DNA from: an uncultured Candidatus Saccharibacteria bacterium
Lineage (GTDB): Bacteria; Patescibacteriota; UBA1384; 2-12-FULL-50-11
Direction of reading: 5' to 3'
Assembly: GCA_964599405.1 (NCBI GenBank)
Contig: CAZRED010000001.1
Location: forward strand, 149,942 to 213,941
DNA: 64,000 bases
Below are positions 9,224-55,659 of the stretch, piece by piece; positions within the stretch are counted from its first letter, which is position 1; every line of letters begins with the position of its first letter. The position numbers were made by a program, and so were the translations under genes. Under the pieces are notes generated by a model. It had not been told where the DNA came from. It worked only from the letters and a program-made list of their open reading frames with translations, and made no database searches.

Positions 9224-9294
9224 AGCGGGGTGGAGGAATGGCACCTCGGGTGGCTCATAACCACCAGTTGCACGTTCGAATCGTGCCCCCGCTA
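9224..9294 (+). tRNA. tRNA with CAU anticodon (Met, fMet or Ile2)
   Basis: Folded by hand. Acceptor AGCGGGG/CCCCGCT, D-arm GAGG-AATGGCA-CCTC, anticodon arm GGTGG-CTCATAA-CCACC, T-arm GCACG-TTCGAAT-CGTGC, discriminator A. Confidence 0.7.
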
Positions 9295-10170: not shown

Positions 10171-10243
10171 GCCGGTGTAGCTCAACGGTTAGAGCGAAGC
10201 ACTCATAACGCTTAGGCAGGTGGTTCAACTCCACCCATCGGCA
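10171..10243 (+). tRNA. tRNA with CAU anticodon (Met or Ile2)
   Basis: Acceptor GCCGGTG/CATCGGC, D-arm GCTC-AACGGTT-AGAGC, anticodon loop CTCATAA, T-arm GGTGG-TTCAACT-CCACC. Confidence 0.7.
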
Positions 10244-10722: not shown

Positions 10723-12882
10723 TTAGCGGCGTGACTTACCGCGTTTCTTACCCTTTCTCTTCGCTGCCTTGCCAGCAGCAACCGGCAGTGCCGGAATATC
10801 CAGTGGACCGCTCTGCATGGAACGGGACAGCGAGTAGAACCCGCCGGCCACTATCAGCAGCAGTACCACCACGATGGCAATGCGCAACCAATCTTGCTGT
10901 CCGGCCACGTTGACCACCATGTCGTCGGCCGCTTGGGCGGTTGGGACGAGTTTAGCAGGCGTTGTTGGAGCCGGTGACTGGATTGTTTCCTTGCTACCTT
11001 CTAAAGCAGCAGTCGTTACCGCCAAATCGCCGTCAACCAGTTCGCCGCTTGTCACTACCCCGGCCACCAGACTGGCAAAAAAGCTGTTGCTCTTGCCGCT
11101 GATGTTGCCGAATTGATCAAGCGCGTAGACCACGAAACTGTTGTAACTGCCGTCGGCCGGCAAATCCAGAATTAGCGTCGTGTTGCTGATTGGGGCAGTG
11201 CGGATAACGTTGACGCCCGAGCCATATTCAACGATGTATGCTGTTGAATCCGCTGGAGCTGTCCAACTCAATTCCACTCGGCAGGACATGGTTTTGCAGG
11301 TCACTTTACCTTTGGTAATCGTCGGTGTTGCTGGTCCAACAATGTCGTTGGCCACACTAACGATGTTGCTGGCATTACCACCAGCATCCACTAACTGCAG
11401 CCAGACAGTTGGGTAGCGATTGTCGCCAATTGAGACGGCGTCAAAGCCAAAACCAACGTTAGTCTGGACCGAAGCCAGTACCACCGCCATTGGGTCGGTT
11501 GGAGCTCGGTCGAAGACTGTTACCGTTGCCAACTCACTGGAAGCGCCAGCTGCGCCGGAAACCGTGTCGTTGCTGCCCGGATTGTTCTGGGCAACTGTTA
11601 ACTTCGTTGCGTCCAAGATCGGAGCGAGGTTGTCTAGCGCCGAACCTTGAACAGTTGGATTAACCAACGATTCGCGGGAGCTGAAGTCAATTGCCACAAT
11701 GGCAAACTCGTAAACAACGGGGCCATTTTCCAGACCGTTAATCGTTGCTTCGAGCAAACTGCCGGCACTTTGACTAAGAACAGTGGCGTCACCAACTTTG
11801 TGGTAGTCGACGCGGTAGGTGATTTCATCTAACGAAGTCGAAGCATCCCACTGCACCAGTACGCTACCGCCATTATCGCTGGCGACGTCTGTTACCGTTG
11901 GGTTGCTGGCTGGTTCCGGGTTAGCCGTATCGACGGTAAAACCGTCGCTCGACAGTTCGCTGACCAATCCAACACCGTTGACTGCCTGAACCGTTGCGAA
12001 ATACGTCACGCCTTCCGTCAAATTCGCGCCTAGCACGAAGACGTGGGAAGTGGCCAGATCGACATCAGTAAATGCAACAACATCGTCAGATCCCGCGGAC
12101 AGACCAAGACCGACCATGTAATCAACAACGCCGCTCTCATCGTCGGCAAAACCGTCCCAGTTGGCACTGGCTACTGCCGGATTGTCGTTCCAGTCAACGT
12201 CGTCAGCCGATCCGTCGTTAACGATTGCCGCCGTTGTGTTGGCTGGTGTTTCGTCGTTGACGAATTTGGGCGTGGCGAAGTTGTTTGGTGCGGCACCAGC
12301 AACCAGGTTTTTGAACCCAATTGACGTGTGCCAATTACCCGGCTGAGTGCCATCTGCAACGATGAAGTTTCGCTCTAATGAGCGCTTTGTTGCTGTGTTT
12401 TCACCGCCAAAGTAACTTCCATCGCCGTTACAATCCATACCGTCGATTAACTCGTCGAGCTGATTTTTCAGCTCAATTATCCGACAGCTCGAAGGATTAC
12501 TAAGCGAGAAGCTTGTTACTTCAAGGTCTAGCGGTACTGCCCTTACGGTGGATAATAGACCAGCCTGACCGATCAGTAAGTACTCACCGGCATTTAGTTC
12601 AGTGTTGGCGGGAATGACAAAGTCGTTACCAGCTCCAACCGTTCTAACGTTTGTTAGCGTCCAGCTGGAAAGGTCGACAAATCCTTCGGTCGCAGTGTTG
12701 AACAATTCAACCCACTCATCTTCAGAACCACTAGCAGCAGTTGACCCCATCCACATCACTTCATTAATGACCACATCGGGCGCCGCGGAAGCGTGAGCGG
12801 GCTCAATCACAAGGAGTTGAGCAGCCACGAAACCCTGGAACGCCAAAAGGATCGTAAGGAAGCGTATCATTACGTTTTTCAT
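10723..12882 (-). CDS. Large surface protein with a lamin-tail (LTD) domain, signal peptide and C-terminal TM plus basic tail
   Basis: VVINEVMWMGS...DEWVELFNT...VDLSSWTL is the LTD signature. C-terminal hydrophobic helix is followed by KAAKRKGKKRGKSRR. Confidence 0.55.
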   Translation of the reverse strand: MKNVMIRFLTILLAFQGFVAAQLLVIEPAHASAAPDVVINEVMWMGSTAASGSEDEWVELFNTATEGFVDLSSWTLTNVRTVGAGNDFVIPANTELNAGEYLLIGQAGLLSTVRAVPLDLEVTSFSLSNPSSCRIIELKNQLDELIDGMDCNGDGSYFGGENTATKRSLERNFIVADGTQPGNWHTSIGFKNLVAGAAPNNFATPKFVNDETPANTTAAIVNDGSADDVDWNDNPAVASANWDGFADDESGVVDYMVGLGLSAGSDDVVAFTDVDLATSHVFVLGANLTEGVTYFATVQAVNGVGLVSELSSDGFTVDTANPEPASNPTVTDVASDNGGSVLVQWDASTSLDEITYRVDYHKVGDATVLSQSAGSLLEATINGLENGPVVYEFAIVAIDFSSRESLVNPTVQGSALDNLAPILDATKLTVAQNNPGSNDTVSGAAGASSELATVTVFDRAPTDPMAVVLASVQTNVGFGFDAVSIGDNRYPTVWLQLVDAGGNASNIVSVANDIVGPATPTITKGKVTCKTMSCRVELSWTAPADSTAYIVEYGSGVNVIRTAPISNTTLILDLPADGSYNSFVVYALDQFGNISGKSNSFFASLVAGVVTSGELVDGDLAVTTAALEGSKETIQSPAPTTPAKLVPTAQAADDMVVNVAGQQDWLRIAIVVVLLLIVAGGFYSLSRSMQSGPLDIPALPVAAGKAAKRKGKKRGKSRR

Positions 12883-13042
12883 GTGTTCTCCTTTTTATTA
12901 ACGAGCACAGAAACCGATTGCGGTCTCTAGCCCCTCTTTCTGTTTCCCCTCTACGCTCCCTAAGAACGGTCTGTCCGCCCCTAAAGTGCTGCTTCTCAAC
13001 GTTAATCATATGCGTCACCACCTGTCAAATCTGTTGAACTGG

Positions 13043-13071
13043 TTGAGAATTGGCCTCTAAAATCGTACAAT
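13043..13071 (+). promoter_or_regulatory. Sigma-70-type promoter for the tRNA cluster
   Basis: TTGAGA, 17-nt spacer, TACAAT, about 12 nt upstream of the first tRNA nucleotide. Confidence 0.45.
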
Positions 13072-13083
13072 ATACTTCCGTAA

Positions 13084-13266
13084 GGGTCCGTAGCTCAGTG
13101 GCAGTAGCAATCGGCTTAACAGTCAGGCCAGGTGGGAGTGTAGCTCAGCGGTTAGAGCGCCAAGCTTATACCTTGGTGGTCCATGGTTCGAATCCATGCA
13201 CTCCCACCTGGCAGGACTGTATGTAATATATCCGATCGGTCGGAGGTTCGATCCCTCCCGGACCCA
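13084..13266 (+). tRNA. Interrupted (split) class-I tRNA gene: 5' half 13084-13114 and 3' half 13232-13266, separated by a 117-nt insert in the anticodon loop
   Basis: Acceptor GGGTCCG (13084-90) pairs 7/7 with CGGACCC (13259-65). D-arm GCTC-AGTGGCAG-TAGC. Anticodon stem ATCGG (13110-14) pairs 5/5 with CCGAT (13232-36). Variable CGGTC. T-arm GGAGG-TTCGATC-CCTCC. The insert 13115-13231 contains a whole tRNA. Confidence 0.45.
13134..13206 (+). tRNA. tRNA-Ile with UAU anticodon, nested inside the split tRNA
   Basis: Acceptor GGGAGTG/CACTCCC, D-arm GCTC-AGCGGTT-AGAGC, anticodon arm CCAAG-CTTATAC-CTTGG (anticodon TAT), T-arm CATGG-TTCGAAT-CCATG, discriminator A. Confidence 0.75.
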
Positions 13267-13270
13267 CAGA

Positions 13271-15082
13271 ATGAAAAATATTTGGCGGCTTTTCGAGTTA
13301 GTCCCCAGCTACAAAAAGCGTCTAACCCGTGTGTTATTGGTTAATAGCGTCCTCGGCCTGGTTGGCCTAGCAACACCGTATCTCCTTAAAACTGTCCTCG
13401 ACCTGGTCATTGCCGCCGTTGGAACGGGGGTGACGCCAGAAAGTAGCGGGCAAATCACTACCGCACTCTCGGTTCTCATAAGCGTAAGTTTGCTTGGTGT
13501 CTTATTTGACTATATAGGTGAACGCCTTAGCGACTTACTATTCATCGACATTATGTGGGAGATCCGCAAAAAAACCTTCCAGCATCTTTCGAAACTGTCG
13601 ATCGACTACTACGAGAAGAACAGGGCAGGGGAAATTATGGAACGCATTAGTACGGGTACGATGGCTTTCTCCCGATGGGCATTTAGTATTGCCGATGGTT
13701 TTCTGGGAGTATCCATCACCATTATTCTTGCTATTATCCTGCTCTGGATACAAATCCCAGTGGTCGGGTTAATTGCCACCATTTCCGTACCGTTAAATTT
13801 CTATTTAGTAATTAACCGTAGTATTAAAACGAAACCAATCCGCGAGGAGTGGTCTAAGCATGCCGAACAGGGCATGGGCGAGATGGGCGAAACCCTGTCA
13901 CAAATTAGTACCGTACGGAGTTTCGCTCAGGAAGAAGAGCGCCTTAGTCGCTACACAAAACAAGTCGACGGCTACCGACATTTGCGTATCCGCCAATCGC
14001 AAATCGAGTGGCGGACGAACGCCCTTCGCGGGCTTCTCAACATGGTAACGTTCATCGGATCGATTGGTTATGTAGCTTGGGGCATTTTTCACGGTCAGCA
14101 CACCGTTGGTGACGTTCTAATGGTATCTCTATACCTCCAACAGATTCGCGGAAATATTGCCCCGTTGAGCAGAATTATGACCGATACGGGTGAGGTCGAA
14201 ACCGCCGCTACCCGACTAGCTACTATTCTTGACGCTGACTCTGCAGTCATCGACCAGGTCGGTGCTTCCGATCTCGATGAGCTGCGATCAATAGAGTTCC
14301 GTTCGGTTTCTTTCCAATACCCGGGAAAAACCAAAAAGGTCCTTCGCGACGTTTCGTTCAAGCTCGCGCGCAGCCAAACACTAGCTTTGGTCGGCCCCTC
14401 TGGCGTCGGTAAAAGCACGATTACCAAACTGCTATTACGTTTTTACGAACCAACCAGCGGTCAGATTCTGATAAACGACAAACCAATTGAAACGTTTACC
14501 CAAAGTTCTGTCCGGAAACTGCTCGGAATGGTTATGCAAGACGTTGCGTTATTTAACGACACCATTAAGGAGAATCTTCGTTTCGCGCGGCCAGACGCCA
14601 GCGATGCTGAAGTGATGCGCGCCGCGGCAATCGCCCACGCTGACGCGTTTATCGATAAATTCCCAGATAAATACGAAACGCTTGTTGGCGAACGGGGAGT
14701 ACGTTTGAGCGGTGGCGAGAAGCAGCGGGTTGCGATTGCCCGAGCCGTATTGAAAAATCCCCAGTTAATTATCCTTGACGAAGCTACATCAGCCCTCGAT
14801 TCCCAATCTGAACGCTATGTCCAAGACGGTCTTTACCAGCTCTTAAAGGATAAGACGGCTCTCATTATCGCGCACCGGCTCAGTACCGTGATGCGAGCAG
14901 ATAAAATCGTTGTACTCAGCGACGGTTCAGTCCTAGAGCAGGGTAACCATCAAGATCTGCTCGAGCAAAAAGGACTCTACGCCAAGCTCTTCTCCATGCA
15001 ATCCGACAGCCTCAAAGATTTCGACATTGCCCCAGAACTAATATCGAAACGGACCAAGAATGATACCGAACCCACACAATGA
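13271..15082 (+). CDS. ABC exporter, fused permease and ATPase (MsbA/lipid-exporter type)
   Basis: Six-TM N-terminal domain. Walker A GPSGVGKST, signature LSGGEKQR and Walker B LILDEATSALD. The track start at 13196 lies inside the tRNA, so MKNIWRLFELVP at 13271 is used. Confidence 0.9.
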   Translation: MKNIWRLFELVPSYKKRLTRVLLVNSVLGLVGLATPYLLKTVLDLVIAAVGTGVTPESSGQITTALSVLISVSLLGVLFDYIGERLSDLLFIDIMWEIRKKTFQHLSKLSIDYYEKNRAGEIMERISTGTMAFSRWAFSIADGFLGVSITIILAIILLWIQIPVVGLIATISVPLNFYLVINRSIKTKPIREEWSKHAEQGMGEMGETLSQISTVRSFAQEEERLSRYTKQVDGYRHLRIRQSQIEWRTNALRGLLNMVTFIGSIGYVAWGIFHGQHTVGDVLMVSLYLQQIRGNIAPLSRIMTDTGEVETAATRLATILDADSAVIDQVGASDLDELRSIEFRSVSFQYPGKTKKVLRDVSFKLARSQTLALVGPSGVGKSTITKLLLRFYEPTSGQILINDKPIETFTQSSVRKLLGMVMQDVALFNDTIKENLRFARPDASDAEVMRAAAIAHADAFIDKFPDKYETLVGERGVRLSGGEKQRVAIARAVLKNPQLIILDEATSALDSQSERYVQDGLYQLLKDKTALIIAHRLSTVMRADKIVVLSDGSVLEQGNHQDLLEQKGLYAKLFSMQSDSLKDFDIAPELISKRTKNDTEPTQ

Positions 15083-19437: not shown

Positions 19438-19509
19438 TCCGGAGTAGCTCAGCGGTAGAGCGACGCCCTGTTAAGGCGCTGGCCGTCGGTTCGAATCCGA
19501 CCTCCGGAG
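19438..19509 (+). tRNA. tRNA-Asn (GUU)
   Basis: Acceptor TCCGGAG/CTCCGGA, D-arm GCTC-AGCGGT-AGAGC, anticodon loop CTGTTAA, T-arm GTCGG-TTCGAAT-CCGAC. Confidence 0.9.
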
Positions 19510-19514
19510 CAAAA

Positions 19515-29308: not shown

Positions 29309-32300
29309 ATGACTAAGCTCCAAATACAACTCCTGCTTGTGATTGGTCTATTGGCGTTGATTGTCAGTGGTTCCTTGGCGTTACGTAAACCGCCCTCAGT
29401 AACTCCGCCCGAAGCTACCTACCGCTACCGCCCACTATCAGAGCTGAAGCTCAATACCACGAATCGGGACAAGTATTTCGTTGGCCAGCACGAAGTGGTT
29501 CCGACGACGGAGCCAATCACGGCGGCTGTGCCACCACTGGCGCACCAAGCTCGGCTCTCTTTGAACAGCGCTCACCCCGGTCTACCAAATACTGGTGCCG
29601 GCGATTTTGATACCTCGATTAAAGCCACTGGCACGGGTTCGATTGCCGAAGCGGTACCGAAAAGCTCCCAGGCCAAAGCGGGTCTGTATCAGCTGAAAGT
29701 AACCGACGGGGTCACTGGGCAGGTAGTTTCTGACCAGACCGTTGCCTGGGGCGTATTAGTTTTTAACTCCGATTACGCCGCCTATCCAATCAACACCAAA
29801 GCCAGACTAGCGATGGCGGTTTTGGACGACCGTGGCAAGATGATCTGTGACGCCGAGCTGACGCTGGCGATCACTGAGCCCAACGGCCGAACTATTACAT
29901 TAAGCACGGCTAATAACCAAATTCTCGTTAATGAGGCCTGTTTTGTCTACGGATTGACCGAAGAGCCAGACTACGTGGCCGAATATTTACCAACCCAAGC
30001 TGGTAACTATCAGGTTGCCTTAACCGCTCGGATCGGTAACGGCGTTAGAGTGCTACACGATCAATTCTCCGTGGTCGAAAACGCCCCGTTCTATCTGCAA
30101 AGGGTTGGTGCTTCCCGAACCTATCCGGCCGCTAGCTATCCCTACACCTTTAACTTTCAACCCACCCAAAGCGGTCGTTACCAATTAACCGAAAACGTGC
30201 CGGGCAGTTTCGAAATACTCGACCTGACGATTGACGGCAACCCCTGCCCGACGGAAAGCTTACTGAACGCCGGAGCTTGCAAGATTGAGGTCTCTGAGGA
30301 CGGCAATGAGAAGCAATTAATCTGGCGGGTCGACGCCCGAGCCAATCGTGATATAAAGATCGCCTATACATTTAAGGGGCCTAGTATTTCGCCGTATTTA
30401 TTCCGGCTTGGACCGGCCGAAATCACCTCACCCGACGACTCAATTTGGACGGAGACACGTTCTTGGCTAATTGCCTCCGATGCCGCTTGCCAATCGAACG
30501 GCACTGGCGGCGGCAACTCCAACGCATCTGGCTCTTGGCAGACCTGCGGTGGGACGACCCCGCAGGCCGCTGACTCAATTACCATTCTGAGCGGCGACAC
30601 CATTACTATGAACGCCGCCTTGAGCGTCACCAGCATTGTTATCAACAACGGCGGCATTTTTACCAACAACGCCAGCCCCTTCACCTTAACGCTCACCGGT
30701 ACCACTGGCACCCTCTTCACCTTGGGCGCAACCGGTACCTTCACGCCCGGCACTTCGATTAGCGTCACGATGAACCCAAATGCTTCAATTACCACTACCT
30801 CCGGTACCATTACTTTTTTTGACTTAAACTTTACGCCGACAATCTCTGCCAGCAACAAAACCTATACGATGGGTTCCGGCGCTCTGACCATTAACGGCAA
30901 CTGGGCTATTACCGGTACGGCCGCGAGTAACGCCTTAACCTTAACGGTTAATATGAGTGCCAACGTGACGGTGGCTTCGACAAAAACCACGACGATTGGC
31001 CCGGCGTCGTTAACTAACAGAGCCACTTTGGACGTACAGCCCTCACTGGCCAGCTACAACCTAACGACCGGTACCCTGGCTATCACCGCCCTAGGTACGC
31101 TAAACGCCGCCAATGCCACCTCGGCGATTACGGTTGCCAACAGCTACAGCAATAGCGGCATTTTCACCGCCGGTTCTAGCACGGTTAGCTTCACCGCTAC
31201 TGCCACTGGTAAAACTTTGAGCGGTACACTATCCGGCGCTAACGGTAAATTCTTCAACGTCATTTTCAACGGCGTCGGCGGTGCCTGGGCATTCGGTGCT
31301 GCCGTCGAAGTAGCTAACGACTTTACCGTTACAAATGGGGCCGTCACTGCTAGTAACAATAATCTCTCCGTCACTCGTGACTTTACACTGGCTTATACCG
31401 CCGGTGTTTCTTACGTGGCTGGATCGTCAACCGTTACCGTCGCCAGACACTTCAATGACCCTGGCGTCAAATACGTTTCTAACACTTCCGAGCTGGCTCT
31501 GGACGGCACGGGCACTTTAACCACCGCTACAACTGCTTCCCTTTACGATGTATCGCTTGGCCAATCCGGCAACACAACAACACTGGCAATGGCCGGAGCG
31601 ATCGACAACTTTAACTACTACGCTAGCGACACAGATCATTTCCGGGTCCTGCTCTTCGACGGGAGTGTTGTCAAATACAAAAGCGCCGAGATAACCCCGC
31701 CCGGCACCGGTGTCAGAAGCTATACTCCGCCATCCCCTGTCCCCTACAAAGCTGGCTGGAGTATCGGTATCTATACCGTCGGTAATGGCGTCATTCCCTA
31801 CACCGGTAGCGGCGGCACACACTACTACCAAGCCAATAACTCTGGCCAACCAAACGAGGAAGCTACGATTTCCTGGCAAGGAACAACAGTCCGAACCTAT
31901 TCGATTAACGGCGAGGTCAACGGCGTCCGGGTAATCGGCAATGACGCTATCAGCCGGCCTTCGCTCGACTCATTCACTAATACCTCCCTGAAAGACACCA
32001 ATAACAACGCTACGGGGGTGGCGGAAGGATTATTAACTGTGACCAACGGCGCTACCTTGAACGGCGGTACGGTTACCGGCACTGATACCGGACTATTTCT
32101 ACCGTGTAGCACAACTTGTTCCGGCCACCTGGTCTTTAACTCACCGACCACCTTGAGCGGCTCCGGCGACAACCGGGTAGTTTACTCAACCGGCAACTCA
32201 ATAACCTATACCGTTACTGGGGGAACCTACGGCAGTTGGAATATTGCAATGGAGACAACCACCCTGTCCGATACGCCGATAACGTTCGAGCTTGGGGGAA

Positions 32301-35053
32301 ATATTATCACCGACGGGTTTGTCGCCCTTCAAGGGTCGCCCCTGGGTGGGAGCAATAGCTTCAACACCGCCGGTTTCAATATGACCGCACTGCGTTTTGA
32401 CGCTGGCAGCGAAAACCAGACCGGTAGTTGGGTCGTTAATCTTGGCGCCTCAACAATTACCCTGGACTCGACTAGCGACTCCTTTGGCGTAGCCAGCAAC
32501 GGCGGCTCCCATACCTTCAACCTCTCTACTTCCTCTGTCTCCACGACTGGGGATATCCGGTTTATTAACGGTACCGGTACAGTCGCCGCGTCTGGCAGTA
32601 CTTCCACGATTACGATGACACCAGCCGCTTCGACCACCCGGACTTTCACCACTAACGCCCAAACGATTGATAACTTTGTCGTTAACGGCGGTAACGGTGC
32701 CGCCACTGTCAACCTGGACGGCAATTTAATTGCCTCTGACAACTTAACGATTACCGCTGGTACTTTGGACGTTACGGCAACGCCGTACAGCGTCACAATC
32801 GGCGGCAACTACTCTAACTCCGGCAGCTTTACTCCCCGGTTGGGTACTGTGACTTTTAATGCTACCGACGCGGGTAATACTCTGGCGGGCACGATGACCG
32901 GTGCGTCAGCCTTTTATAATCTCGTTTTCGACGGCGTTGCTGGCGGCTGGAGCTTTAGCGCCGCGGTGACGGCAACGAACGACTTTACCGTTACCAACGG
33001 GGACGTTACCGCCAATAACAATAACTTGACTGTTACCAGGGACTTTACGCTAACTAACGTGGTGGGCGTTTCCTACACGGCCGGCTCCTCCACCATCACC
33101 GTTAGCCGCGACTACAATAACCCCGGCGACCGGTTTGTTCGTGGCACATCATTAGTTATCCTTGACGGCACCGGCAACGTTAATACCACTGGCGGTAAAT
33201 TTAATAACCTTTCTCTGGCTTACACCTCACAAGTCTCAACCTTCAATACCACCAACTTCGCGGTTTACGGCGTTCTCACCTTTAACGGCGGTACCGCCAA
33301 CGGGAGTGTTGACGGTTACGTTTCGCTGGAGCGATCTGCTAGCGCTACCCCAATTGTGTTCGCATCAGCCACCACCCTCTCCGGCACTAGTAGGACGCTT
33401 TTTCATAACAACAACGCCAATAGCCTGACTACCACCATCGCTGGTGGTAACTACGGGACGTGGAATATTATTTTGTTTACTACCCTTGGGCCTGCCACCA
33501 GTAGTATCTACCAGTTAGCCGGTAATATTACTAACACTGGTTACGTTACCCTCCAGGCCGTTGGGGGATCGACGGGCAACGTTTTTAACACCCAAAACTT
33601 CAACATTACATCGCTACGGTTTGACCTCGGCACCCAGTCCCGAACCGGACCGTGGACTGTCAATTTTGGGTCTTCGACGCTGACCCTTTCTGATACTGCT
33701 GATTCGTTTGGCGTTGCTAGTAACGGCGGCTCTCATACCTTCAACCTTTCAACCGCCGCCATCAACACCGTTGGGAACGTGCTGTTTGCCAACGGCACCG
33801 GCACCGTGTCCGTGAGTCAGGGCACCTCGACCGTGACTTGGGCGCACCCAACTGGTACCAAAACTTACGCCCCCAACAGCCAATCTCTGCACAATCTCAC
33901 GCTCAACAGCGCCGCTGGTACCCTTCAACCCAATGGTGCCGTTATTGCTACCGGCAACTTTATTATCACCGCCGGCAGCTACGACACCGTTGCTGGCCAA
34001 GACTACGCCTTAACGATCGGCGGCAACTACACCAACTCCGGCACATTTAATGCGCAGGGTGGAACGGTTACCCTAAACGGCTCCGCTACCCAAACGCTTT
34101 CTGGCACGATGGTCGGCGGTAGCGCATTCAATAACTTAACGATTACCAATAATTCTGGCACATCGGCTAGCGACTGTGAGCGAACAAGTTTTGTCCCATC
34201 AGTGGACTTTAATGCCGCTGCTTGGACAAGCGGTAACTACACCATCACTACGGCCAATGTTCGGGTCGAGTACAACTCCGGCTCTACCTACGCCTTCACC
34301 AACATCAATTGGAACGGTCAGACGATTGGGACACAGATTTACTTCCGCAACTCGGTCGCCAGCGACACCTGGCTGTTGGATGTTTCGGGAACGCAGACAG
34401 CTGTCTCCTACGTTAACGTCTCCCGGTCTAACGCCGCTAGTGGCCTTCAGATTGTTGCTAGCGACGGTACCAACACTGACTGCAACAACAATAGTAACTG
34501 GCTTTTCGTTTCTGGTGCCTTATCGACCGATATCGTTAACGCTGGCGGCACTCCAATTGATTCACCATCTATCGCCATGGGTGCAGCCACATTCTCCCTT
34601 TTATATCAAACAGTTAGCGGTATCTTTGGCGCCACTGATGAAAAAGTCAGAGTTAGTAACACCACCGTTAACCCCCAATGGAGCTTGACGATTGCCGCCA
34701 GTAGCGGTCCGACTGGGCTCTGGTCGGCTGGGACACCGAAGTATGACTTTAACGACCCAACTGGGAGTGCAGGAGACGGCGGCGATGGCGACGCTTACGG
34801 GGGACAGCTGACAATGGATGTGACTGGTGGAACCCTTGGTGGAACCTGCTCGACGACCGGAATAACTAAAGGATCATCTGCTGGTTTTTCTGAAGGAGTG
34901 GTCAACTCAATCACCCTGCTCACGGCCAGTGGCACGGCCGACGTTAGTTGCTATTGGGATTTAACCGGCGTGGACGTACTTCAAACCCTACCTTCCGAGC
35001 AAGCAACTAGCAGCTACTCCATCAATATGACTCTCACTATTACCGCCAATTAA
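29309..35053 (+). CDS. Giant (1914 aa) repeat-rich surface protein ending in the WxL-like module
   Basis: Signal/TM at the N-terminus. Long Thr/Gly/Asn-rich beta-solenoid-like repeats with two roughly 400-aa internal duplications. The last roughly 170 aa are homologous to the two small paralogs (YWDLTGVDV, QWSLTIAAS). Confidence 0.7.
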   Translation: MTKLQIQLLLVIGLLALIVSGSLALRKPPSVTPPEATYRYRPLSELKLNTTNRDKYFVGQHEVVPTTEPITAAVPPLAHQARLSLNSAHPGLPNTGAGDFDTSIKATGTGSIAEAVPKSSQAKAGLYQLKVTDGVTGQVVSDQTVAWGVLVFNSDYAAYPINTKARLAMAVLDDRGKMICDAELTLAITEPNGRTITLSTANNQILVNEACFVYGLTEEPDYVAEYLPTQAGNYQVALTARIGNGVRVLHDQFSVVENAPFYLQRVGASRTYPAASYPYTFNFQPTQSGRYQLTENVPGSFEILDLTIDGNPCPTESLLNAGACKIEVSEDGNEKQLIWRVDARANRDIKIAYTFKGPSISPYLFRLGPAEITSPDDSIWTETRSWLIASDAACQSNGTGGGNSNASGSWQTCGGTTPQAADSITILSGDTITMNAALSVTSIVINNGGIFTNNASPFTLTLTGTTGTLFTLGATGTFTPGTSISVTMNPNASITTTSGTITFFDLNFTPTISASNKTYTMGSGALTINGNWAITGTAASNALTLTVNMSANVTVASTKTTTIGPASLTNRATLDVQPSLASYNLTTGTLAITALGTLNAANATSAITVANSYSNSGIFTAGSSTVSFTATATGKTLSGTLSGANGKFFNVIFNGVGGAWAFGAAVEVANDFTVTNGAVTASNNNLSVTRDFTLAYTAGVSYVAGSSTVTVARHFNDPGVKYVSNTSELALDGTGTLTTATTASLYDVSLGQSGNTTTLAMAGAIDNFNYYASDTDHFRVLLFDGSVVKYKSAEITPPGTGVRSYTPPSPVPYKAGWSIGIYTVGNGVIPYTGSGGTHYYQANNSGQPNEEATISWQGTTVRTYSINGEVNGVRVIGNDAISRPSLDSFTNTSLKDTNNNATGVAEGLLTVTNGATLNGGTVTGTDTGLFLPCSTTCSGHLVFNSPTTLSGSGDNRVVYSTGNSITYTVTGGTYGSWNIAMETTTLSDTPITFELGGNIITDGFVALQGSPLGGSNSFNTAGFNMTALRFDAGSENQTGSWVVNLGASTITLDSTSDSFGVASNGGSHTFNLSTSSVSTTGDIRFINGTGTVAASGSTSTITMTPAASTTRTFTTNAQTIDNFVVNGGNGAATVNLDGNLIASDNLTITAGTLDVTATPYSVTIGGNYSNSGSFTPRLGTVTFNATDAGNTLAGTMTGASAFYNLVFDGVAGGWSFSAAVTATNDFTVTNGDVTANNNNLTVTRDFTLTNVVGVSYTAGSSTITVSRDYNNPGDRFVRGTSLVILDGTGNVNTTGGKFNNLSLAYTSQVSTFNTTNFAVYGVLTFNGGTANGSVDGYVSLERSASATPIVFASATTLSGTSRTLFHNNNANSLTTTIAGGNYGTWNIILFTTLGPATSSIYQLAGNITNTGYVTLQAVGGSTGNVFNTQNFNITSLRFDLGTQSRTGPWTVNFGSSTLTLSDTADSFGVASNGGSHTFNLSTAAINTVGNVLFANGTGTVSVSQGTSTVTWAHPTGTKTYAPNSQSLHNLTLNSAAGTLQPNGAVIATGNFIITAGSYDTVAGQDYALTIGGNYTNSGTFNAQGGTVTLNGSATQTLSGTMVGGSAFNNLTITNNSGTSASDCERTSFVPSVDFNAAAWTSGNYTITTANVRVEYNSGSTYAFTNINWNGQTIGTQIYFRNSVASDTWLLDVSGTQTAVSYVNVSRSNAASGLQIVASDGTNTDCNNNSNWLFVSGALSTDIVNAGGTPIDSPSIAMGAATFSLLYQTVSGIFGATDEKVRVSNTTVNPQWSLTIAASSGPTGLWSAGTPKYDFNDPTGSAGDGGDGDAYGGQLTMDVTGGTLGGTCSTTGITKGSSAGFSEGVVNSITLLTASGTADVSCYWDLTGVDVLQTLPSEQATSSYSINMTLTITAN

Positions 35054-53590: not shown

Positions 53591-54475
53591 TTAAGAAACT
53601 AGGTGCTTAAAGTGGTCTTTCTGCAAGCGCAGCTTTCGAATTGCAGATGTCTCTGCATCAATGACCGTGTGACGACAGATGCTAAGTATCTCTCCAACTT
53701 CATCAAGTGTTCTAACAACGCCATCTTCTATGCCGAAGCGCAATACGATGACGTCTCTCTGTCGAGCTGTGAGTTCCCCCAGTACTGCTTTGAACAGTTC
53801 TTCTCGCACTAACTTATCTTCAACTTCGGACATTTGATTACTAGCTAGTAGTTCAACGATCGTATCATCGCCACTTTCTCCAACAGGTGTGTCAAGAGAA
53901 ATAATAGACTGCCCAGAAGACAACATATTGGCTACTTTTTCCGAACTGTAGCCTAGGTAGTTGGAGATATCGGCTTGCGTCACGGAATGCCGAAGTTTTT
54001 TCTCGAGTGCTTCCACCTCCTTTCGAAAACCGCTCAATGCGGTGGTAACGTGGATTGGAAGACGGATAGTTCTACCTTCATTGAGTAAACCGCGATTTAT
54101 CTTCTGGCGAATCCATAGAGTCGCGTAAGTAGAAAATCGACAGCCTCTGCTATAGTCGTAGCGCTTCGCCGCTTCCATCAGACCTATAAACCCCATCATG
54201 AAAAGGTCGTCCATATCCTGGGAGTAGGCTTTTCTTTCGGCGGCCTTTTTGGCGATCGACAAGACCAGACGAAGGTTGGCCTTGACCAGGTGTCTGTGCG
54301 CTTCAATACTTCCTTCTTCTTTAACCTTTCGGCCAAGATCTAACTCCTGTTCTTTGTTCAGAAGGTGATCTTGCGAAGTTACCCGGACAAGTGCCGAAAT
54401 TGATGACGAGCTTTCCAGCTCGCTCTCTTGTGTTAGTAACGAGTTGGTCGGCTTTTTTCTCATATCAAGTCTCAT
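53591..54475 (-). CDS. Sigma-70 family sigma factor (group 2/3-like, regions 2-4)
   Basis: Region 2 (YSQDMDDLFMMGFIGLMEAAKRYDYSRGCRFSTYATLWIRQ) and region 4 HTH (TLDEVGEILSICRHTV). Confidence 0.75.
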   Translation of the reverse strand: MRLDMRKKPTNSLLTQESELESSSSISALVRVTSQDHLLNKEQELDLGRKVKEEGSIEAHRHLVKANLRLVLSIAKKAAERKAYSQDMDDLFMMGFIGLMEAAKRYDYSRGCRFSTYATLWIRQKINRGLLNEGRTIRLPIHVTTALSGFRKEVEALEKKLRHSVTQADISNYLGYSSEKVANMLSSGQSIISLDTPVGESGDDTIVELLASNQMSEVEDKLVREELFKAVLGELTARQRDVIVLRFGIEDGVVRTLDEVGEILSICRHTVIDAETSAIRKLRLQKDHFKHLVS

Positions 54476-54540
54476 ATGTGAACGTTCACTGGGAAATTAT
54501 AGCTCTAAAATGGCACAAACTCAATTATCAAGCCGGCAGT

Positions 54541-55659
54541 TTACGTCAAGTAGTCTTTGAGACGCGAGGCTTCTTCGTGCTTTTTCAGCTTCTGCAGAGC
54601 TTTGGCTTCAATCTGGCGGATACGCTCGCGAGTAACGCCGAACTCTTTACCCACTTCTTCCAGGGTGTGGGTGCGGCCGACGCCCTCTTCTGGCTCCAAG
54701 CCAAAGCGCATTCGGAGAATCTTTTGCTCGCGCGGCGTTAGAATCGCTAGGGATTCCTCGACGTGGCCTTTCATCAACTGGTAAATCGCCTGCTCTTCTG
54801 GGGAGATGGCCGTTTTGTCTTCGATAAACTCGCCCAAACTGGAATCGCCTTCATCGCCGACAGGGGATTCCAGCGAAACGGTTTCTTGGGAAATCTTCAT
54901 GATGTGCTCGAGCTTCTCCAGGTCAACGCCAAGTTTTTTGGCCAGCTCTTCGTGGGTTGGTTCGCGGCCCAGCTCTTGCTGCAGTTCGCGCTGGGTGCGC
55001 ATGTAGCGATTGATGGTTTCCACCATGTGAACTGGGATACGAATCGTTCTGGCTTGGTCGGCAATCGCTCGGGTAATCGCTTGGCGAATCCACCAGGTAG
55101 CGTAAGTCGAGAACTTAAACCCCTTTTTGTAATCAAATTTTTCAACGGCTCGGTGCAAACCCAGGTTGCCTTCTTGAATTAAATCCAGCAGCGACAGACC
55201 CCGGCCGATGTATTTTTTGGCAATCGAAACAACAAGGCGCAGGTTAGCTTCAGCTAAACGGCGCTTAGCGGCTTTATCGCCGCGCTCAATCCGCTTGGCT
55301 AGCGCCACCTCTTCTGGGCCGGTTAGCAATGGGTATTGCCCAATTTCCCGCAGGTACATTCGAACAGAATCTTCGGAAATGCCGGTTAAATCGTCTTCTT
55401 TGATGTTTTTCTTTTTCTCATCAACGCCCGGGATATCCAGTAGGGCTTTTGGTTCGCGCAGCTCCACGCCAATAGCGCTAAGGTAGCGCATATATTCGTC
55501 AATCATCTCCAAATCCTGCTCCGGTTCGGGAAACGACTGGAGAATTTCTTTGTAGGTAACAAAGCCGTGCTGACGGCCTTTTTTAATCATGTACATTAGC
55601 TCATCGGGAAAATCTAACCCGACGTCTTGTTTAACTTTTTTGGGAACCGCTTTTGTCAT
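54541..55659 (-). CDS. rpoD: Primary sigma factor RpoD
   Basis: Region 1.2, region 2.x ([41 protein letters not shown]), region 3 and region 4 ([24 protein letters not shown]). Confidence 0.9.

What the first reader, a model, noticed from the sequence alone, without database searches (positions are those of the whole stretch)
13134..13206. tRNA-Ile with UAU anticodon
Most bacteria decode AUA with tRNA-Ile2(CAU) modified to lysidine by TilS. A genomically encoded UAU anticodon is a rare alternative, known from a few bacteria such as some mycoplasmas and others lacking tilS. Two CAU tRNAs are also present in this window (9224-9294 and 10171-10243), so the AUA decoding strategy of this organism deserves a look.
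Basis: partly seen in the sequence, partly recalled or inferred. Interest (0 to 1): 0.5.

Follow-up and report, generated by a model that had tools for sequence, protein, structure and literature searches.

The report
tRNA gene nested inside a tRNA gene
The tRNA-Ile(UAU) is real, but it sits inside the anticodon loop of a second, split tRNA-Ile(UAU) gene; this "Russian-doll" arrangement recurs in related uncultured bacteria, up to three layers deep, and I found no description of it in the papers I could search.

Summary
**Observation.** Confirmed. Window 13134-13206 is a canonical tRNA-Ile with anticodon TAT (Rfam 74.3 bits; ARAGORN agrees).

- The gene lies inside another tRNA-Ile(TAT) gene, split between anticodon positions 35 and 36. 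The outer halves are 13084-13118 and 13229-13266.
- A 15-nt leader and a 22-nt trailer flank the inner tRNA and pair with each other.

**Where else it occurs.**
- The organism is a Saccharibacteria/Patescibacteria bacterium. The syntenic site next to an ABC exporter holds a single gene in six relatives, double nests in two, and a triple nest in one.
- More nests turned up in metagenome contigs.
- On the same contigs, 0 of 75 other tRNAs have such a shell.

**Evidence on function.**
- Inner genes are always intact.
- Shells range from perfect to decayed or half-deleted.

**Evidence on origin.** The same loop position elsewhere carries a group I intron, a group I intron with an HNH endonuclease gene, and, in a phage, a tRNA-Ile plus HNH cassette.

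**Best reading.** This is DNA-level gene-in-gene replacement, probably the endonuclease-free end state of a homing-type invasion. Only the inner tRNA is functional.

**Limits.** The insertion mechanism is inferred, not shown. The tilS status cannot be settled from 64 kb.

The parts
13043..13071 (+). Sigma-70-like promoter (TTGAGA, 17 nt, TACAAT), 12 nt upstream of the outer 5' half
   Evidence: Consensus scan, 10 of 12 matches. The region aligns with the conserved TTGAGT-17-TAAAAT promoter that precedes the resident tRNA-Ile gene in relatives (alignment A1). Function is inferred.
13084..13118 (+). Outer ('shell') tRNA-Ile(TAT) 5' half: acceptor strand, D arm, anticodon-stem strand and loop positions 32-35 (CTTA)
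   Evidence: Sequence. Joined to 13229-13266 it gives tRNA-Ile(tat) in ARAGORN, with only one D-stem mismatch.
13119..13133 (+). Leader of the inserted cassette (ACAGTCAGGCCAGGT)
   Evidence: Pairs with the trailer: duplex -22.6 kcal/mol against -6.7 +/- 2.5 for shuffles, 0 of 500 shuffles as good. It extends the inner acceptor stem from position -1:73 outward.
13134..13206 (+). Inner, intact tRNA-Ile(UAU); anticodon at 13167-13169; followed by CC (13207-13208) but no encoded CCA
   Evidence: Rfam 74.3 bits; ARAGORN. It is 96-99% identical to the un-nested syntenic genes of relatives.
13207..13228 (+). Trailer of the cassette (CCTGGCAGGACTGTATGTAATA)
   Evidence: Complementary to the leader. 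Trailer and leader joined head-to-tail fold into one hairpin of -21.5 kcal/mol.
13229..13266 (+). Shell 3' half: loop positions 36-38 (TAT), anticodon-stem strand, variable loop, T arm (GGAGG TTCGATC CCTCC), acceptor strand and discriminator A
   Evidence: In the RNA fold of 13075-13280 the outer acceptor stem closes around the whole insert (z = -5.6).
13271..15082 (+). ABC exporter gene whose ATG lies 4 nt after the shell's discriminator base; the syntenic anchor of the locus
   Evidence: ORF list; 603-aa product with ABC_membrane and ABC_tran domains, and homologues of 57-81% identity. In relatives the ATG lies 1-5 nt after the outermost tRNA.

Best explanation
**What is there (shown).** A 110-nt cassette of 15-nt leader, complete tRNA-Ile(UAU) and 22-nt trailer sits in the DNA between anticodon-loop positions 35 and 36 of a resident tRNA-Ile(UAU) gene. 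The resident gene is thereby split into two halves that remain as a shell.

**How it most likely works (inferred).**
- The whole unit is transcribed from the resident promoter.
- The shell halves pair with each other and the leader pairs with the trailer, forming one long stalk topped by the inner cloverleaf.
- Ordinary 5' and 3' tRNA processing plus CCA addition release only the inner tRNA, which is the cell's AUA decoder.
- The shell is a relic, not a second tRNA.

**How it most likely arose (inferred).**
- The nest is the endonuclease-free end state of a homing-type invasion. HNH endonucleases circulating in these communities break tRNA-Ile genes in the anticodon loop.
- An insertion at that spot survives only if it brings its own tRNA-Ile(UAU).
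- The newly arrived copy re-creates the target, so the process can repeat and build two or three layers.
- Recombination between the repeated halves later prunes the shells.
For: **Nesting**
- Removing the insert yields tRNA-Ile(tat).
- 35/36 is the only junction compatible with the window nest and the three syntenic nests, and it rebuilds most of the other shells.

**Empty and filled alleles at one syntenic site**
- Single genes: L014/15, L017, L022/23, L018-20, L024/25, and L001 (only the 3' two-thirds of its gene is on the contig).
- Double nests: L016 and L021. Triple nest: L002.
- The L016 shell starts exactly where L022's intact gene starts, behind the same promoter and the same leader.

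**Only the inner gene behaves as a gene**
- In every nest scanned, only the innermost copy scores as a tRNA in Rfam.
- Shells range from perfect (window, L218, L241, L261) to defective: acceptor or T-stem mismatches, abnormal T loops, 6- or 8-nt anticodon loops, and extra inserts in the D or T loop.
- Some loci keep only the 5' halves: L182, L191 and L252 and L224.
- L191 looks like L174 with the trailer and 3' half deleted.
- Between L002 and L016 the shared cassette differs at 2 of about 120 nt, against 6 of 71 in the shell (hand count).

**Specificity**
- 0 of 75 other tRNAs on the same contigs have a shell.
- Leader-trailer pairing appears in all 15 cassettes tested. It is absent from un-nested tRNAs, including the un-nested tRNA-Ile genes of relatives.

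**Homing link**
- L286 has a group I intron in the anticodon loop of a tRNA-Ile(TAT)-like gene.
- L233 has an intron that also matches the Rfam group I model and resembles L286's at its 3' end (by eye), carrying an HNH ORF.
- Phage contig L305 has tRNA-Ile(TAT) plus an HNH ORF inserted at CTTA|TAA of a tRNA-Ile shell.
- tRNA-Lys plus HNH cassettes sit behind truncated tRNA-Lys copies.

**No rival machinery.** The insert matches no group I model even at E<=10.
Against: **No enzyme at hand**
- No endonuclease, integrase, transposase or reverse transcriptase lies in the window (Pfam on 50 ORFs; no HNH motif; tblastn negative). The link to HNH homing rests on other loci.
- The HNH-bearing cassette in L305 lacks the leader-trailer hairpin by eye. 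The descent of small cassettes from it is therefore not shown.

**Unexplained architecture**
- The hairpin design of the small cassettes is not explained by simple loss of an endonuclease gene. It could point to a different mechanism.
- In particular, trailer plus leader form one circularly permuted hairpin in every cassette, and the X/Y trailers resemble the start of the ABC gene.

**Order of events in the window**
- The clade-typical gene is the inner one and the unusual type is the shell.
- This needs either an earlier replacement or transfer of the whole locus.

**Signs of constraint on shells**
- Several shells are still perfect cloverleaves.
- A few compensatory changes occur in shells: the L220/L282 acceptor pair and the D-loop hairpin of L016/L002/L021 (both read by eye). 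So some structural constraint on shells is possible.

**No expression data.** No RNA data were available.
Confidence: 0.6

Rival explanations
1. **An RNA-level 'tRNA intron'.** The insert is removed from the transcript and the two shell halves are ligated, so one transcript yields two functional tRNA-Ile(UAU) molecules. The leader-trailer helix would bring the exon ends together, as in archaeal split or intron-containing tRNAs.
For: - The insertion is clean, at a fixed position, with variable sequence but conserved helix architecture starting at the junction.
- Several shells are perfect cloverleaves with an exact 7-nt loop after removal.
- There are compensatory changes in shell stems and in the D-loop extension (by eye).
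- The same position hosts self-splicing group I introns in this phylum (PMC13011429).
Against: - No ribozyme can fit in 15 + 22 nt, and Rfam finds none.
- No bulge-helix-bulge motif can be drawn at the junctions (by eye).
- As far as I know, bacteria have no tRNA splicing endonuclease.
- RNase P and RNase Z cuts would leave the leader and trailer attached to the halves.
- Many shells could not work even if spliced: wrong loop length, broken stems, abnormal T loops, missing 3' halves.
- Shells evolve faster than the cassette they enclose (hand count).
Confidence: 0.12
2. **DNA-level insertion without a homing endonuclease.** Three variants are possible:
- Fold-back or template-switch repair that copies the resident tRNA with its 3' flank and re-inserts it through 1-2-nt microhomology.
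- A structure-recognising single-strand DNA transposase.
- A recombinase that moves a small circular unit of tRNA plus hairpin.
For: - Trailer and leader joined head-to-tail form one continuous hairpin in every cassette, and the shell is attached at or just after the tip.
- The X/Y trailers match the native junction of tRNA and ABC start codon at 16-18 of 24 nt, and the leader is its inverted copy.
- 'AT' is repeated at both junctions in one cassette family.
- Near-identical shell and inner copies suggest events within one genome: L252 100%, L182 97%, and L174 100% over the 5' half; L241 differs by one flipped base pair (by eye).
- There is no target-site duplication in most nests and no conserved element ends.
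Against: - No such enzyme was found near any nest.
- An intrinsic repair error does not explain why only Ile(UAU) and Val(UAC) genes are hit on these contigs. My search pattern did, however, require CTTA in the loop.
- It also does not explain why HNH-bearing insertions use the same spot.
Confidence: 0.22
3. **Artefact or chance.** The flanks only look like tRNA halves, or the contig is mis-assembled.
For: None beyond the general caution that this is a metagenome-assembled genome.
Against: - The shell has a 7-bp acceptor stem, a 5-bp anticodon stem, a 5-bp T stem with a TTCGATC loop and a TAGCTCAGTGG D arm.
- Analogous nests occur in independent assemblies from NCBI, JGI, ENA and Logan.
- L220 and L282 carry the same triple nest on different contigs.
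Confidence: 0.01

Closest known systems
Free-standing homing endonucleases in phage tRNA gene clusters (T4 SegB; 'intronless homing')
   Same: SegB cuts inside tRNA genes of related genomes, and repair copies the endonuclease gene together with the neighbouring tRNA genes (PMC2330249). L305 shows the analogous unit, tRNA-Ile plus HNH, inside a phage tRNA cluster.
   Different: - SegB lies between genes. Here the cassette sits inside the target tRNA gene, at the anticodon loop, and brings a full replacement copy of that same tRNA.
- This creates nested shells.
- The window's cassette has no endonuclease gene.
Group I introns in bacterial tRNA anticodon loops, including position 35/36 in Patescibacteria (PMC13011429)
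   Same: - Same phylum, same loop, same position.
- L002 has a 35/36 group I intron in tRNA-Asn.
- L286 and L233 have group I introns in tRNA-Ile(TAT)-like genes, L233's with an HNH ORF.
- The insertion is clean, with no target duplication.
   Different: The window insert has no group I core and is only 110 nt. It keeps the tRNA-Ile function by carrying a tRNA, not by self-splicing.
Disrupted archaeal tRNA genes (long introns, split and tri-split tRNAs with complementary flanking sequences; PMC4390854, PMC4090602)
   Same: A 5' half followed by a sequence complementary to the one that precedes the 3' half, with the break in the anticodon loop.
   Different: - Those genes are spliced at bulge-helix-bulge motifs by an archaeal endonuclease.
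- No such motif can be drawn here, and the organism is a bacterium.
- As far as I know from memory and from the literature searches, none of them carries a tRNA inside.
Integrative elements that use tRNA genes as attachment sites and restore the gene
   Same: The insertion targets a tRNA gene and compensates for the disruption.
   Different: - Classical elements carry only the 3' part of the tRNA plus an integrase, and they leave a direct repeat of that part.
- Here the two flanks are complementary halves of one gene.
- The insert is 110-170 bp, and no integrase is present.
Genomically encoded tRNA-Ile(UAU) as AUA decoder (Mycoplasma mobile; Bifidobacterium and Neorickettsia lack tilS; PMC3575796)
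   Same: An encoded UAU anticodon, with AUA codons in use.
   Different: tilS absence, IleRS adaptation and the U34 modification state are untested. Here the gene is conserved across a whole clade at a syntenic site.

Membership tests
tRNA (Rfam RF00005) | Covariance-model score above the gathering threshold, with a full cloverleaf | tested here: met
   74.3 bits against a threshold of 29, model positions 1-71; ARAGORN agrees.
tRNA-Ile(UAU) AUA-decoding system (M. mobile type) | Genomically encoded UAU anticodon | tested here: met
   TAT at 13167-13169 in both predictors.
tRNA-Ile(UAU) AUA-decoding system (M. mobile type) | Absence of tilS and of a tRNA-Ile2(CAU) | not testable with these tools
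   Only 64 kb of a 326-kb contig is available. No SGGxDS ORF lies in the window. Two CAT tRNAs are present, but their identity was not established.
Group I intron in a tRNA anticodon loop | Group I catalytic core | tested here: not met
   No RF00028 match in 12950-13350 even at E<=10. The same model finds introns in L286, L233 and L002.
Group I intron in a tRNA anticodon loop | Clean insertion within the anticodon loop | tested here: met
   Removing 110 nt restores a 7-nt loop CTTATAT.
Archaeal-type (bulge-helix-bulge) tRNA intron or split tRNA | Two 3-nt bulges separated by a 4-bp helix at the exon-intron borders | tested here: not met
   By inspection, the junctions show a 4-5-nt strand opposite a 3-12-nt strand, or a near-continuous helix. 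No bulge-helix-bulge can be drawn.
Homing-endonuclease cassette (free-standing or intron-borne) | Endonuclease gene within or next to the insert | tested here: not met
   None in the window. Present in L305, L233 and the tRNA-Lys loci.
Homing-endonuclease cassette (free-standing or intron-borne) | Filled and empty alleles of one conserved target site among related genomes | tested here: met
   Six single-gene loci (L001 only partly visible) against four nests at the syntenic tRNA-Ile / ABC site.
Homing-endonuclease cassette (free-standing or intron-borne) | Cleavage of the empty site by the endonuclease, and co-conversion of flanks | not testable with these tools
   This needs biochemistry or genetic crosses.
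Integrase-mediated island at a tRNA attachment site | Integrase gene, and a direct repeat of the tRNA 3' part flanking the element | tested here: not met
   No integrase in the window. The flanks are the two different halves of one gene, not repeats.
Miniature inverted-repeat element (IS630/Tc1 type) | Terminal inverted repeats, TA duplication, and several copies per genome | tested here: inconclusive
   Inverted flanks are present. The window junction is compatible with a TA duplication, but L194, L241 and L261 have none. There is no second copy in the window, and element ends are not conserved between cassettes.

The most novel reading that the evidence does not exclude
These nests would mark a previously unrecognised minimal selfish element: a self-replacing tRNA cassette. 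It invades the anticodon loop of its own kind of gene, destroys that gene and becomes indispensable by supplying the replacement. It also re-creates its own target, giving recursive nesting. Under this reading it moves either with HNH endonucleases acting in trans or by an unknown hairpin-based mechanism. A still more radical reading is that Patescibacteria excise such tRNA-bearing inserts at the RNA level and re-join the shell, which would be a protein-dependent tRNA splicing pathway in bacteria.
Probability: 0.35. Interest if true: 0.9.

Novelty: new variant of a known kind. Interest (0 to 1): 0.8.

Why it matters
- **Annotation.** tRNA finders report only the inner gene, so nested shells pass unnoticed. 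They could mislead tRNA gene counts and pseudogene calls in Patescibacteria.
- **Mobile-element biology.** If the homing reading holds, this shows a way for a mobile insertion to be tolerated in an essential RNA gene. Instead of splicing itself out, it carries a spare copy of the gene. That adds a third solution beside self-splicing introns and integrases that rebuild their attachment site.
- **A record of past invasions.** The layers preserve successive replacements of one gene. This makes turnover of an essential tRNA directly readable from sequence.
- **Testability.** Saccharibacteria are, to my knowledge, naturally transformable. The required sequencing and cleavage assays are simple.

Tried and rejected
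- ARAGORN's intron mode does not report the outer gene. I had to delete the insert by script.
- Viral-collection scans for two T arms or two D arms in close succession returned mostly tightly packed phage tRNA arrays or unrelated hits (inspected, only partly screened). A general search for nested tRNAs of any kind was therefore not feasible with exact patterns.
- The single metagenome scan required CTTA in the outer loop, so it is biased towards UAN anticodons. About 94 of its 123 hits lacked an intact inner tRNA; most of the roughly 60 I inspected were satellites and other repeats, though a few were real nest layers or introns such as L174, L224, L286 and L233.

**Searches that found nothing**
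- The intact version of the window's shell, and the inner tRNA type, are absent from viral contigs.
- 5'-half-only arrays have no distant 3' halves within the held flanks.

**Explanations considered and rejected**
- A TA or AT target duplication as a general rule. It fits the window and one cassette family but not L194, L241 or L261.
- An integron-type attC site. The core motifs do not fit.
- A bulge-helix-bulge intron.
- An integrase island. There is no integrase and no direct repeat.

**Not pursued**
- Literature searches found no description of a tRNA gene nested in a tRNA gene. The library is limited to open-access papers and preprints.
- Pfam alone barely recognises the small HNH proteins; PHROGs was needed.

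Full report
**1. The observation**

ARAGORN finds five tRNAs in the window. One is tRNA-Ile with anticodon TAT at 13134-13208. Infernal with Rfam gives 74.3 bits over the full model at 13134-13206. The anticodon is at 13167-13169 and no stem has a mismatch.

**2. What surrounds it**

Read directly, the flanks are the two halves of a second tRNA.
- Upstream, 13084-13118: GGGTCCG TA GCTC AGTGGCAGT AGC A ATCGG CTTA.
- Downstream, 13229-13266: TAT CCGAT CGGTC GGAGG TTCGATC CCTCC CGGACCC A.

Joining the two gives a tRNA-Ile(tat) in ARAGORN, with one D-stem mismatch. The window alone allows the junction to be placed at 33/34, 34/35 or 35/36.

Between the halves lie three elements:
- a 15-nt leader (13119-13133);
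- the intact tRNA;
- a 22-nt trailer (13207-13228).

Leader and trailer pair with -22.6 kcal/mol, against -6.7 +/- 2.5 for shuffles. This prolongs the inner acceptor stem. The RNA fold of 13075-13280 closes the outer acceptor stem around everything (z = -5.6).

A sigma-70-like promoter (13043-13071) lies 12 nt upstream of the outer 5' half, and no terminator-like site lies in 12700-13500. ARAGORN's intron mode does not see the outer gene. No group I or other Rfam family matches the insert, even at E<=10.

**3. Organism and context**

The ABC exporter that starts at 13271 has 75% identical homologues in a Candidatus Saccharibacteria genome and a Patescibacteria genome.

Pfam on 50 window ORFs shows an ordinary small bacterial chromosome. 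It encodes MurJ, FtsH, DivIC, Ddl, YkuD, an RNase J-like protein, sortases, RpoD and DnaG. There is no transposase, integrase, reverse transcriptase, RNA ligase or homing endonuclease. No ORF has an HNH motif.

**4. The same site in relatives**

Synteny is conserved: surface protein, tRNA-Ile(TAT), ABC exporter, Ddl, YkuD.

| Locus | ABC identity to window | State of the tRNA-Ile site |
|---|---|---|
| L014/L015 | 81% | single gene |
| L017 | 68% | single gene |
| L022/L023 | 67% | single gene |
| L018-L020 | 66% | single gene |
| L024/L025 | 62% | single gene |
| L001 | 75% | single gene, as far as visible (contig ends in the D stem) |
| L016 | 77% | double nest |
| L021 | 81% | double nest |
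| L002 | 75% | triple nest |

- L026 (59%) has different neighbours and no tRNA upstream of the ABC gene.
- The L016 shell begins exactly where L022's intact gene begins, behind the same promoter and the same leader. The shell is therefore the former resident gene and the inner gene is an insertion.
- Position 35/36 is the only junction compatible with all of these nests.
- The window's inner gene is 96-99% identical to the single genes of relatives. Its shell resembles nothing held, at 75% identity or less. The shell does share its acceptor stem and variable loop with the inner gene of L002 and L016.
- So two tRNA-Ile lineages appear to have replaced one another in different orders.

**5. Wider distribution**

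A script joined each 5' half to downstream 42-mers and tested the product with ARAGORN. It recovered these cases:
- Full nests in L173, L174, L194, L195, L218, L230, L241 and L261.
- A triple nest around tRNA-Val(TAC) in L220 and L282.
- Arrays of 5' half plus leader without 3' halves in L182, L191, L224 and L252.

A general nest finder was then run on all 433 tRNAs held.

| tRNA class on the Saccharibacteria and metagenome contigs | With a shell |
|---|---|
| Other tRNAs | 0 of 75 |
| tRNA-Ile(tat) | 9 of 27, plus 3 seen by eye whose shells have an extended D loop |
| tRNA-Val(tac) | 2 of 7 |

The search pattern biases this sample towards UAN anticodons.

**6. Is the shell alive?**

- Only innermost genes score as tRNA in Rfam.
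- Shells range from perfect cloverleaves (L218, L241, L261, nearly the window) to clearly defective ones:
  - L002 shell 1 has an A.C mismatch in the acceptor stem and a 6-nt anticodon loop.
  - L002 shell 2 has a T-stem mismatch.
  - L194 has the T loop ATCGTCA, and L230 has TCCGAAT.
  - L173 has an 8-nt anticodon loop.
  - L195 has a roughly 95-nt insert in the T loop.
  - L016, L002 and L021 have a roughly 42-nt insert in the D loop.
- L191 equals L174 minus the trailer, the hairpin and the 3' half. That is the product expected from recombination between the repeated 3' halves.
- Between L002 and L016, the shared inner cassette differs at 2 of about 120 positions. The shell differs at 6 of 71, and the D-loop insert at about 12 of 42 (my hand count).
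- These points favour a relic.
- Against that, a few compensatory changes occur in shells. One is the acceptor pair in L220 versus L282. Another is the D-loop hairpin GATGGC/GCCATC, GATGAC/GTCATC, GGTGGC/GCCACC. I read these by eye.
- One possible reason is selection on how the precursor folds. Another concerns the outer acceptor stem and T arm, which may still act as a processing signal.
- This second idea rests on the position of the ABC start codon, which lies 1-5 nt after the outermost discriminator in most loci with this gene order (about 50 nt in L018-20 and L021). It is an idea only.

**7. Cassette architecture**

- All 15 cassettes tested have complementary leader and trailer. Un-nested tRNAs do not, including the un-nested tRNA-Ile genes of relatives: z is -1.8 to +0.9, against -3.5 to -4.1 for nested ones.
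- Joined head-to-tail, trailer and leader form one continuous hairpin in every cassette. The shell is attached just after the terminal loop, at the loop edge (the window), or at the tip.
- In the X and Y cassettes of L002, L016 and L021, the trailer matches the native junction of tRNA and ABC start codon at 16-18 of 24 nt. The window's own cassette, used as a control, matches at 8-12. The leader is the inverted copy of the trailer. This suggests the cassette was copied from such a locus with a fold-back.
- One cassette family has 'AT' at both junctions. Most others have no duplication.
- I cannot derive the insertion mechanism from these features alone.

**8. Link to homing endonucleases**

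- L286 is a tRNA-Ile(TAT)-like gene with a group I intron in the anticodon loop (66.9 bits).
- L233 also carries a group I intron (64.7 bits), whose 3' end resembles L286's by eye. It contains an ORF that matches PHROG HNH endonuclease families (E 1e-19).
- L305 is a phage tRNA cluster. It holds a tRNA-Ile shell split at CTTA|TAA by a 9-nt leader, an intact tRNA-Ile(TAT), an HNH ORF (E 1e-23) and about 70 nt. ARAGORN rebuilds the shell as tRNA-Ile(tat).
- Phage locus L330 shows a shell around tRNA-Phe plus HNH.
- Four tRNA-Lys(CTT) loci (L196, L198, L199, L248) have a truncated 5' copy, then an intact tRNA-Lys, then an HNH ORF. L231 and L238 show the same truncated-copy arrangement, but no HNH was found there.
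- In L002 the tRNA-Asn has a group I intron at 35/36, as published for this phylum (PMC13011429).
- The closest characterised system is T4 SegB. It recognises a tRNA T-arm motif and spreads itself together with neighbouring tRNA genes (PMC2330249).
- The window's nest therefore fits the endonuclease-free stage of a homing cycle. This is an inference from other loci. The HNH-bearing cassette in L305 lacks the hairpin architecture.

**9.

- ATA makes up 132 of 1097 Ile codons in window ORFs.
- tRNA-Ile(TAT) is conserved at this locus across the clade.
- No PP-loop ORF lies in the window.
- Bacteria with UAU tRNA-Ile and no tilS are known (PMC3575796).
- Whether this genome lacks tilS cannot be decided here.

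**10. Novelty**

Four literature searches found no description of a tRNA gene nested in a tRNA gene. I rate it a new variant of known kinds, namely insertions into tRNA anticodon loops and homing of tRNA gene regions. There is a realistic chance that it represents a distinct class of minimal selfish element.

Noticed in passing
window 13267-13273; L001, L002, L014, L016, L017, L022, L024 at the tRNA / ABC junction: The ABC exporter's start codon lies 1-5 nt after the discriminator base of the outermost tRNA-Ile in most loci with this gene order (about 50 nt in L018-20 and L021). There is no room for a ribosome-binding site. This suggests that tRNA 3' processing creates a nearly leaderless mRNA.
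   Followed up: partly
window 9224-9294: This CAT tRNA was missed by the 64-kb Rfam gathering search but scores 59.7 bits in a local search. By eye it looks initiator-like: it starts AGCGGGGTGGAG, resembling E. coli tRNA-fMet from memory, but with an A1-U72 pair.
   Followed up: partly
L016 2781-2840; L002 5697-5750; L021 1340-1395: The shells of three relatives share an extra piece of about 42 nt in the D loop. Its hairpin keeps pairing through compensatory changes: GATGGC/GCCATC, GATGAC/GTCATC, GGTGGC/GCCACC. Its nature is unknown.
   Followed up: partly
L195 (minus strand), 3' half of the shell: The shell of this nest has an additional insert of about 95 nt inside its T loop.
   Followed up: no
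L196, L198, L199, L248 (also L231, L238, without HNH evidence): An intact tRNA-Lys(CTT) gene is preceded by one or two truncated 5' copies that end near position 48. In L196, L198, L199 and L248 it is followed by a hairpin and a 143-156-aa HNH endonuclease gene. This looks like a second tRNA-plus-endonuclease cassette family with a different break point.
   Followed up: partly
L002 12838-13138 compared with window 19438-19510: The tRNA-Asn(GTT) of L002 carries a group I intron at position 35/36 (CTGT|…|TAA), and ARAGORN misses the gene. The window's orthologue is intron-less.
   Followed up: yes
L220 31-290 and L282 1497-1760: A triple nest whose inner gene is tRNA-Val(TAC). The same leader and trailer are used in both layers, and the middle shell looks Ile-like. 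Alternation of tRNA types between layers also occurs in the window and in L002.
   Followed up: partly
L330 4542-5200 (phage tRNA cluster): The acceptor stem and T arm of a tRNA shell enclose an intact tRNA-Phe plus an HNH endonuclease gene. The end of the endonuclease ORF overlaps the shell's anticodon and variable region.
   Followed up: partly
window 29309-35053: A 1914-aa ORF with no Pfam match, followed by a DUF7507 protein and a sortase, with a second sortase about 4 kb further on. It may be a large surface protein locus.
   Followed up: no
window 53591-55659: Two sigma-70 family genes lie side by side, next to dnaG.
   Followed up: no
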